A stretch of DNA of 64,000 nt from the human T2T-CHM13v2.0 reference genome, Homo sapiens, in assembly GCF_009914755.1 (NCBI RefSeq), contig NC_060933.1. One strand, 5' to 3'. Made by a program: the position numbers and the translations under genes. Within the stretch, counting starts at the first letter, position 1, and the number at the start of each line of letters is the position of its first letter. The notes under the pieces are model-generated. The model saw only the letters and a program-made list of their open reading frames with translations, searched no databases and was not told the DNA's origin. This document shows positions 29,235-31,367 of this stretch, piece after piece.

Positions 29235-29354
29235 GAGAGGTTGCATACTGTGGTTCTCAGGTTGCAGTCAGCCTGCAGACAGGTATTGTTTGGCCTGTGC
29301 CACGGTTTTAGAAAGTAAGAATTAGTTAACAGTGTTTGAAAATTGGGAAATATC
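29235..29354 (-). mobile_element. MER102-like hAT MITE, 3' end
   Basis: gagaggttgcatactg...gcagacaggtattgtttggcc...gaattagtt...aaaattgggaaatatca resembles the recalled MER102 terminus. Confidence 0.6.
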
Positions 29355-29355
29355 A

Positions 29356-29622
29356 GCTGAGCGTGGTGGCTCATGGCTGTGACCCCAGCGCCCGGGCAGC
29401 CTGGGCAACATGGTGAAGCCCTGTCTCTATGAGAAATGCAAAAATTAGCTGAGCATGGTGGTGCGCACCTGTAGTCCCAGCTACTTGGGAGGCTGAGGTG
29501 AGAGAATCACTTGAGTGCCTGGGAGGTCAAGGCTGCAGTGAGCCGTGATAGTGCCACTCCAGCCTGGGCGACAAGAGCAAAACTCTGCCGCGCCCCCGCC
29601 CAAAAAAAAAAAAGAAAAGAAA
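29356..29622 (+). mobile_element. Chimeric Alu (AluJ-like body, AluSq/Sp-like 3' end)
   Basis: J-type ggtcaaggctgcagtgagccgtgat is followed by ccactccagcctgggcgacaagagcaaaactc. The left arm is internally deleted. Confidence 0.8.
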
Positions 29623-30007
29623 AAGAAAATATGGCACATATACACCACGGAATATGACGCAGCCATTAAAAAAGAACATGTCTTTTGCGGGAACATGGGT
29701 GGAGCTGGAGACTATTATACTTAGCAAACTAAGGGTAACCAAATACCACATGTTCTCACTTATAAGTGGGAGTTAAATGATGAGAACTCATGAACACAAA
29801 GAAGGGAAAAACAGACACTGAGGTCTACTTGAGGGTAGAGGGTGGGCGGAGGGAGAGGAGCAGAAAAGATAACTGTTGGGTGCTGGGCTTCATACCTGGT
29901 TGATTTAGTAATTTGTACAACAAACCCCTGTGACACGAGTTTACCTAAGAAAACAAACCTTCACATGTACCCCCTAACCTAAAATAAGAGTTAAAAAAAA
30001 AAAAAAG
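29623..30007 (+). mobile_element. L1PA-type 3' end with poly(A); the inverted continuation of the L1 at 30905-32938
   Basis: aagaaaatatggcacatatacacc...catgttctcacttataagtgggag...ctaaaataagagttaaaa, a typical L1PA 3'UTR. Confidence 0.9.
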
Positions 30008-30563
30008 AAGAAATGCAACTAACTGAAACACATCAGGCAAATCAATAGAAAAAAAAAACCACCAACTCTTGGAAGGAGGGCTTTCAAGGTTTCAAAACTC
30101 TTGCATGAAATTTCATGAACTTGATCCACAGGAGAGCTCCCTATGAGTCATTGAGTCTCATTTGAGACTCATTTCTAAGAAGCATGGGTTTTCTTTTTTG
30201 CTCCCCTGGAAGGCTGGAAGCAGTGAAGAGGGACTTCGTGGAGAGGAGACTTTGTAAACAGCACAACTGGACCACAGCCAGCGAGACCAGAAGCAGGATA
30301 GAGGGTGTATAAGAAGCGGCTGTGAGAACTGTAGCAGTAGAACCAGCTTGGGCCATCTAGTGTGGGGCACACACCCTCATGGGACTTGTGTTTTGACAAA
30401 GGAGTTAGACATTAAGCAAATCTAACTTGCTTAAATTTAAAGCCGTTATGAAAAGTGCTTCAGAGAAATGGCATCATTGAGAAATGAGAGACCACAGATT
30501 CATTGCTGGTTTATAGCTGATGATCACAGTGCACATAACTGAAATTTTTGAGAGCATATAACC

Positions 30564-30648
30564 CAGGGGTCACAAGCATGAATGCCTTTATGGGGGTGGA
30601 CAGGTCATGTAAAGGAGAGAAACAAGAGGGTGTGGTAATAGGGAGTGT
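30564..30648 (+). mobile_element. MER102-like hAT MITE, 5' end (opposite orientation to its 3' end)
   Basis: caggggtcacaagcatgaatgcctttatgggggtggacaggtcatgtaaa resembles the recalled MER102 5' TIR region. Confidence 0.6.
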
Positions 30649-30902
30649 TGCAATGGCGTAATCTCGGCTCACTGCAGCCTCCGCCTCCCGGGTTCAAACA
30701 ATTCTCCTGCCTCAGCCTCCCAAGGAGCTGGGATTACAGGCACCTGCTAACCATGCCTGGCTACGTTTTTGTTTTTTTTTTAAGTAGAGACAGGGTTTCA
30801 CCATGTTGGCCAGGCTAGTCTCGAACTCCTGGCCTCAAGTGATCTGCCCGCCTCAGCCTCCTAAAGTGCTGGGATTACAGGTGTGAGCCACAATGCCCGA
30901 CC
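30649..30902 (-). mobile_element. AluS lacking its 3' end and tail
   Basis: Alu sense ends abruptly at gccattgca. Confidence 0.9.
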
Positions 30903-31367
30903 AGGTACCACATTTTCTTGATCCAATTTGTCATTGATAAGCATTCGAGTTGGTTCCATGTCTTTGCTATTGTGAAGAGTGCTGAAATGAACGTTTGCAC
31001 GCACATGTCTTTATGGTAGAATGACTTATATTCCTTTGGGTATATATCCAGTAGTAGGATGGCTGGGTTGAATGGTAGTTCTGTTTTTAGCTCTTTGAGG
31101 AATTGCCACACTGTTTTCCACAAGGGTTGAACTAATTAACACCAACAGTGTATAAAGATTCCCTTTTCTCCACAACCTCACCAGCATCTGTTATTTTTTG
31201 ACTTTTTAATCACAGCCATTCTGATTGGTGTGAGATGGTATCTCACGGTGGTTTTGACTTGCATTTTTCTAATGATCAGTGATACTGAGTCTTTTTTTCA
31301 TATGCTTGTTGGCTGCATGTATGTCTTCTTTTGGAAAGTGTCTGTTCATGTCCTTTGCCTACTTTTT

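What the first reader, a model, noticed from the sequence alone, without database searches (positions are those of the whole stretch)
29235..30919. ~1.1-kb inversion (29555-30648) that split an Alu, an L1 and a MER102
Three independent markers agree. (1) The minus-strand L1 stops at aagaaaatgtggtac (30919-30905) followed by an Alu 5' end. The matching TSD copy aagaaaatatggcac (29623-29637) and the rest of the L1 3' end lie on the plus strand after an Alu tail. (2) The minus Alu ends at gccattgca. Its missing AluSq/Sp-type end (ctccagcctgggcgacaagagcaaaactc plus tail) is fused to an AluJ body at 29555. (3) The two ends of one MER102-like element face opposite ways (29235-29354 and 30564-30648). 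Flipping the segment back restores all three. Both junctions show cactcc microhomology, and the AluJ tail and MER102 middle are missing. Inference: a microhomology-mediated inversion with deletion, promoted by a formerly inverted Alu pair about 1 kb apart.
Basis: partly seen in the sequence, partly recalled or inferred. Interest (0 to 1): 0.7.

Follow-up and report, generated by a model that had tools for sequence, protein, structure and literature searches.

The report
Old 1.1-kb Alu-linked inversion with deletion
Three old repeats in non-coding human chromosome 9 DNA are each split into two pieces facing opposite ways and fit together when a 1.1-kb stretch is flipped, so this is very likely an ordinary, probably harmless inversion, likely made by a repair error between two Alu repeats.

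Summary
The two opposite-facing L1 pieces are adjacent in 24 of 29 genomic L1 copies, overlapping by exactly the 15-nt target-site duplication. Flipping 29557-30648 restores a full S-type Alu between both TSD copies. A profile from 11 other copies places the two DNA-transposon pieces (MER102-like, name recalled) at model positions 1-84 (+) and 229-347 (-). About 200 bp were lost on the left. The one inner stretch tested, the 559-nt spacer, is single-copy. Three corrections: the best left edge is 29557; 'cactcc microhomology at both junctions' overstates it (left 4 nt, right 2-3 nt or a hexamer 3 nt out of register); and the Alus are still an inverted pair. Best mechanism (0.6): one repair or replication event with two template switches, one Alu-to-Alu and one Alu-to-MER. 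The class is known: Alu-mediated inversions with junction deletions, of this size and Alu identity (PMC9675761, PMC2603318). The locus was not found in the lists I could search, using estimated coordinates. Its age is untested beyond being younger than the AluS insertion. It is intergenic, with no annotated element. Interest is low.

The parts
29238..29355 (-). 3' piece of an old DNA-transposon remnant (MER102-like; name recalled), outside the flipped segment
   Evidence: profile positions 229-347, E 1.8e-4
29339..29355 (+). likely surviving TSD copy of the J-type Alu; the second copy would lie in the lost stretch
   Evidence: inference from sequence: A-run preceded by T-rich bases directly 5' of the Alu
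29356..29556 (+). J-type Alu body with a ~42-nt left-arm deletion; its own 3' end and tail are missing
29555..29558 (+). left junction: 4-nt CACT overlap, Alu-to-Alu, 5 nt short of a normal Alu
   Evidence: alignment with 85 other Alu ends, none of which shows this 5-nt loss
29557..30648 (.). the inverted segment (1092 bp)
   Evidence: in-silico flip restores the S-type Alu with both TSD copies
29557..29622 (+). 3' end and tail of the S-type (Sq/Sp-like; name recalled) Alu
   Evidence: extra A + AAACT end
29623..29637 (+). TSD copy 1 of the S-type Alu
   Evidence: 13/15 match to 30905-30919; equals the 15-nt overlap in L1 copies
29623..30006 (+). 3' end of the L1 with poly(A)
   Evidence: 82-85% identity to 39 other genomic copies listed
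30007..30563 (.). single-copy spacer carried inside the inversion
   Evidence: only a self match in the genome search
30564..30648 (+). 5' piece of the same DNA-transposon remnant, inside the flipped segment
   Evidence: profile positions 1-84, E 3.1e-4
30646..30651 (.). right junction, MER-to-Alu: 0-3 nt clean overlap; shared hexamer 3 nt out of register
   Evidence: sequence
30649..30904 (-). body of the S-type Alu, cut before its last ~35 nt and tail
30905..30919 (-). TSD copy 2 of the S-type Alu
30905..32938 (-). upstream part of the same L1 (5'-truncated), interrupted by the EIF4A1P3 retrocopy
   Evidence: collinear with the plus piece in genomic L1 copies

Best explanation
A 1092-bp segment (29557-30648) was very likely inverted and about 200 bp next to it lost, probably in one repair or replication event with two template switches guided by two facing Alu repeats. 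Inferred earlier order: a J-type Alu sat inside a DNA-transposon remnant, and an S-type Alu sat in the opposite orientation inside an L1 about 1.2 kb away. Inferred event: the S-type Alu broke about 35 nt before its tail. Its body-side end primed on a very short match in the transposon remnant and copied the intervening DNA backwards up to the break. The new Alu-ended strand then annealed to the J-type Alu, 5 nt out of register on a 4-nt match. This accounts for every base of the S-type Alu exactly once, and drops the J end, its tail, one TSD copy and the transposon middle. It is likely neutral and likely older than the human-chimpanzee split.
For: Shown: L1 pieces adjacent with a 15-nt overlap in 24 of 29 copies; full Alu with both TSDs after the flip, with no base lost or repeated when the edge is 29557; opposite-strand, non-overlapping transposon pieces with 144 model positions missing; J-to-S switch between 29546 and 29573; arms 81.7% identical, with a 16-nt identical run ending about 10 nt before the left join; spacer single-copy. 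For one event rather than two: the 5-nt loss and the end of the larger deletion fall at the same Alu position, and none of 85 other Alus shows that 5-nt loss. Precedent (passages read, PMC9675761): 4 of 7 Alu-mediated inversions had junction complexities, with deletions of 38-251 bp, median size 1097 bp for the complex ones and median Alu similarity 81.7%, attributed to MMBIR or replication slippage. That an inversion occurred at all: about 0.95.
Against: No outgroup or ancestral allele was available, so the earlier state is reconstructed, not seen. Junctions this old can have drifted, so microhomology lengths are uncertain by a few bases. In PMC9675761 the complexities were at both breakpoints and were defined against a real second allele. 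The final sequence cannot strictly separate one event from two. The transposon marker is weak in pairwise tests. The L1's own TSD was not found, so there is no fourth marker. The age rests on absence from lists searched with estimated coordinates.
Confidence: 0.6

Rival explanations
1. Two steps: a reciprocal Alu-Alu recombination inversion (RRMI) made two chimeric Alus. A later deletion between the two cactcc hexamers (or an earlier one) removed the J end, tail and transposon middle.
For: The left join is at a near-homologous Alu position. In PMC2603318 (text parts 1-2 read), 12 of 49 RRMI and 75 of 252 inversions came with deletions. A hexamer shared by the Alu and the transposon lies at the right join.
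Against: It needs an independent 5-nt loss exactly at the crossover (0 of 85 other Alus) and a deletion ending at the same Alu position. The hexamer join carries 3 extra bases. PMC4617611 (passages) found no intermediate alleles for complex inversions.
Confidence: 0.2
2. The facing Alus paired into a stem-loop or cruciform that was cut across both arms at nearly the same stem position. The loop fragment was rejoined in reverse by end joining after ~200 bp were trimmed on one side.
For: Breaks at almost homologous positions in both Alus (5-nt stagger); short or absent microhomology at the right join; inverted pairs are under-represented and prone to deletion (abstract of PMC3215922); the left Alu carries another ~42-nt deletion.
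Against: The arms are only ~82% identical with a ~1.2-kb loop, a weak substrate by general knowledge. It needs two breaks and one-sided trimming, where one break suffices in the best model.
Confidence: 0.15
3. No inversion: independent insertions or fragments of L1, Alu and DNA transposon happen to lie this way, or the L1 was inverted during its own insertion (twin priming).
For: The region is repeat-dense (one search lists 100-144 Alu matches in the window); the subfamily contrast alone is not significant (p 0.30).
Against: Exact 15-nt complementarity of the L1 ends and base-exact restoration of the Alu. Twin-priming pieces abut (within 6 bp in the rule used by PMC1914374, passage), whereas these are ~900 bp apart with the inverted part on the wrong side.
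Confidence: 0.03
4. A local mis-assembly in T2T-CHM13.
For: Not tested: no reads and no second human assembly were available.
Against: A 1.1-kb flip with offset joins and a 200-bp loss in a long-read assembly is an unlikely error (general knowledge).
Confidence: 0.02

Closest known systems
[quoted passage not shown]
   Same: Opposite-orientation Alus, ~1.1 kb size, ~82% Alu identity, junction deletion within the reported 38-251 bp range
   Different: Those are polymorphic and called against GRCh38; this one is reconstructed from one genome, and one join is Alu-to-non-Alu
Retrotransposon recombination-mediated inversion, Alu-RMI (PMC2603318, text parts 1-2 and chr9 rows of Table S1 read)
   Same: Chimeric Alu at one breakpoint; inverted Alu pair; accompanying deletion (12 of 49 there)
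   Different: No reciprocal chimeric Alu on the right; neither of the two chr9 rows of their Table S1 is this locus
'Inv and Del' class of the 1000 Genomes SV map (PMC4617611, passages read)
   Same: Inversion with a flanking deletion (14% of 229 characterised sites), attributed to replication errors
   Different: Not known to segregate in humans
Four-point template switch, order 1-3-2-4 (PMC5453318, passages read)
   Same: Leave, copy the opposite strand, return; inverts the spacer between inverted repeats
   Different: That model was built for short events; here the copied tract is 1.09 kb and ~200 bp are lost

Membership tests
Alu-mediated inversion with deletion (TEMR / RRMI) | An Alu at each breakpoint, in opposite orientations | tested here: met
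Alu-mediated inversion with deletion (TEMR / RRMI) | Chimeric Alu at a junction | tested here: met
   left Alu: J-type body, S-type end; subfamily names recalled, no repeat library available
Alu-mediated inversion with deletion (TEMR / RRMI) | Internal segment reversed relative to the ancestral allele or an outgroup | not testable with these tools
   no primate genomes held; internal reconstruction only
Simple reciprocal RRMI | Two reciprocal chimeric Alus, no net loss | tested here: not met
   right Alu ends at 30649 and joins the transposon piece; ~200 bp missing
Inverted duplication (inv-dup) | A second, source copy of the inverted stretch | tested here: not met
   spacer and transposon pieces give only self matches; the search skips very common words
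L1 5' inversion (twin priming) | Opposite-strand L1 pieces abutting within one insertion | tested here: not met
   pieces ~900 bp apart with Alu, spacer and transposon between
Human polymorphic or human-chimpanzee inversion | Listed in or detectable by inversion catalogues | tested here: inconclusive
   no hit in PMC1270012 Table S1, PMC2603318 Table S1, PMC9675761 or PMC13629690; older-build coordinates were estimated from recalled offsets

The most novel reading that the evidence does not exclude
The inversion is recent, human-lineage or still polymorphic, and was missed by the catalogues. Its junctions would then be a clean record of one broken Alu end copying back 1.1 kb and re-landing on a neighbouring Alu, 40 kb upstream of the RAPGEF1 promoter.
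Probability: 0.08. Interest if true: 0.4.

Novelty: new member of a known kind. Interest (0 to 1): 0.15.

Why it matters
It matters little by itself. It is one more instance of a described class, in intergenic DNA with no gene or RefSeq functional element over it (hub table). Its small value is as a well-marked fossil, with three nested repeats fixing both breakpoints almost to the base from one genome. It could serve as a primate phylogenetic marker once dated.

Tried and rejected
Direct genome searches with the transposon pieces found only themselves, so other copies were gathered with end motifs. Pairwise alignment of the 3' piece to 13 such copies was at shuffle level. A profile from 11 of the 16 fetched copies worked; 5 were dropped by eye as not continuing into the element. 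A search for the L1's own TSD between 29995-30045 and 32000-40000 found nothing. Rfam gave only Alu-derived SRP/miRNA look-alikes and a sub-threshold SNORA67 match. Catalogue checks: PMC7605249 (macaque) supplement could not be searched. PMC9712629 (gibbon) had no hit but lists only events over 7 kb, one file was unsearched and one cut, so it is uninformative. PMC9675761 file 5 was unreadable. PMC13629690 covers inversions flanked by inverted repeats, so its blank says little. PMC2603318 Table S1 was searched for chr9 rows only and, by the paper's text, covers the 49 RRMI loci, not all 252. Paper searches for inversion + RAPGEF1/MED27/9q34.13 and for EIF4A1P3 found nothing on this locus. Twin priming, inverted duplication and simple reciprocal RRMI were rejected (see membership tests). 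Unseen supplements and databases (InvFEST, gnomAD-SV, HPRC, ape T2T alignments) may list the locus.

Full report
Setting. The window is human T2T-CHM13 chr9 (hub table). The feature lies about 40 kb upstream of RAPGEF1 and 80 kb from MED27, with no gene or RefSeq functional element over it. No repeat library or primate genome was available. Family names (AluJ, AluSq/Sp, MER102) are recalled, and all tests use copies taken from the same genome.

L1 marker. A genome search with the plus-strand piece 29623-29995 listed 39 other copies at 82-85% identity, and 29 were fetched. In 24 of the 29, the minus-strand piece 30905-31345 maps directly upstream on the same strand with a projected overlap of exactly 15 nt. 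One copy had no upstream match, one overlapped by 31, and three had gaps of 187-822 nt. The upstream piece matches these copies at 76-86%, similar to the 3' piece. The 15 nt are the two TSD copies (13 of 15 identical); one further site in the window is within 2 mismatches of the plus copy. So the two pieces are one L1 split at an Alu insertion site and now facing opposite ways.

Alu marker. I aligned 85 other Alu 3' ends from the window and fetched loci; the self rows and two left-arm mis-hits were dropped. The left Alu has the J-type base at most discriminating columns up to 29546 and an S-type end from 29573. The right Alu is S-type except for one column. The end with an extra A and AAACT occurs in 4 of 85, always together with the T of gccaTtg that the right Alu carries (p 5e-4). 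It is absent from 26 J bodies, but that contrast alone is not significant (p 0.30). Flipping 29557-30648 in silico gives a complete S-type Alu between the two TSD copies, with no base lost or repeated.

DNA-transposon marker. Direct searches found only self matches. Sixteen other copies were fetched with end motifs. Pairwise comparison was weak, at shuffle level for the 3' piece. A profile from 11 of the 16 gave two hits below E 1 in the 64-kb window: positions 1-84 on plus at 30564-30650 (E 3e-4) and 229-347 on minus at 29355-29238 (E 2e-4). The reversed window gave none. Seed choice makes this partly circular, but two of the seeds (L035, L039) were picked by the 5' motif alone and also show the 3' end. 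144 model positions are missing. Adding about 45 nt of Alu end and tail and a likely 17-nt TSD copy, the loss is about 200 bp.

Junctions. Left: the J body joins the S end on CACT, 5 nt short of a normal Alu; none of the 85 other Alus shows that loss, and one shows a 5-nt gain there. A 16-nt run identical in both Alus ends about 10 nt upstream. Right: the S body ends at gccattgca and runs into the transposon piece; the hexamer shared with the Alu is 3 nt out of register, so the clean overlap is at most 2-3 nt. The hexamer occurs 77 times in the window. The Alus remain an inverted pair, 81.7% identical over 153 aligned bases. The spacer has no second copy, which argues against an inverted duplication.

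Mechanism. Shown: the pieces, their fit and the loss. Inferred: the order of events. The S-type Alu is present exactly once to the base, while all losses are on the J side, and both the 5-nt slip and the end of the long deletion fall at the same Alu position. One break in the S-type Alu explains this: copy-back from the transposon to the break end, then re-annealing to the J-type Alu (0.6). Rivals are recombination followed by a separate deletion (0.2), cleavage of an Alu-Alu stem with end joining (0.15), no inversion (0.03) and mis-assembly (0.02).

Known context. PMC9675761 (passages) reports that 4 of 7 Alu-mediated inversions had junction deletions of 38-251 bp or small insertions, a median size of 1097 bp for the complex ones and median Alu similarity of 81.7%. 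PMC2603318 (text parts 1-2) reports deletions with 12 of 49 RRMI. PMC4617611 (passages) gives 14% 'Inv and Del'. PMC5453318 (passages) describes the switch-and-return geometry. This locus fits that class closely.

Age and prior listing. The event postdates the S-type Alu insertion. I found no row for it in the human-chimpanzee list of PMC1270012: no human chr9 row starts at 131 or 132 Mb. It was also absent from the two chr9 rows of PMC2603318 Table S1 and from the supplements of PMC9675761 and PMC13629690. These checks used coordinates estimated from recalled build offsets (exact CHM13 prefixes only), and each list has limited sensitivity. The macaque supplement was unreadable and the gibbon list starts at 7 kb. 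The likeliest reading is a fixed event older than the human-chimpanzee split, but this is untested.

Verdict. A real, well-marked but ordinary rearrangement: new member of a known kind, interest 0.15.

Noticed in passing
window 31361-31861 (-): The EIF4A1P3 retrocopy sits inside the same L1 with its own apparent TSD. It starts within SNORA67 and keeps the intron piece 3' of the snoRNA while the last intron is spliced out. The RefSeq span omits 31735-31861. Three copies on contigs C7, C8 and C1 share this anatomy and reach 78 nt further 5'; they likely correspond to U67b-d of PMC1802619 (passages), whose four U67 rows include none on chr9.
   Followed up: partly
window 29388-29398: The J-type Alu lacks about 42 nt of its left arm relative to the right Alu; whether this is linked to the inversion is unknown.
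   Followed up: no
window 29587-29602: A GC-rich 16-mer with three CpGs replaces the usual last Alu bases before the tail; unexplained.
   Followed up: no
window 30664-30679 (-) and 29530-29545 (+): The right S-type Alu carries a J-type base inside the 16-nt run identical to the left Alu, just before the junction; chance or a short conversion tract.
   Followed up: partly
window 32938-33265 (-) and 30007-30060: The L1's truncated 5' end abuts the tail of another J-type Alu with no clear TSD, and a second short A-run lies ~45 nt after the L1 poly(A); no L1 TSD was found.
   Followed up: partly
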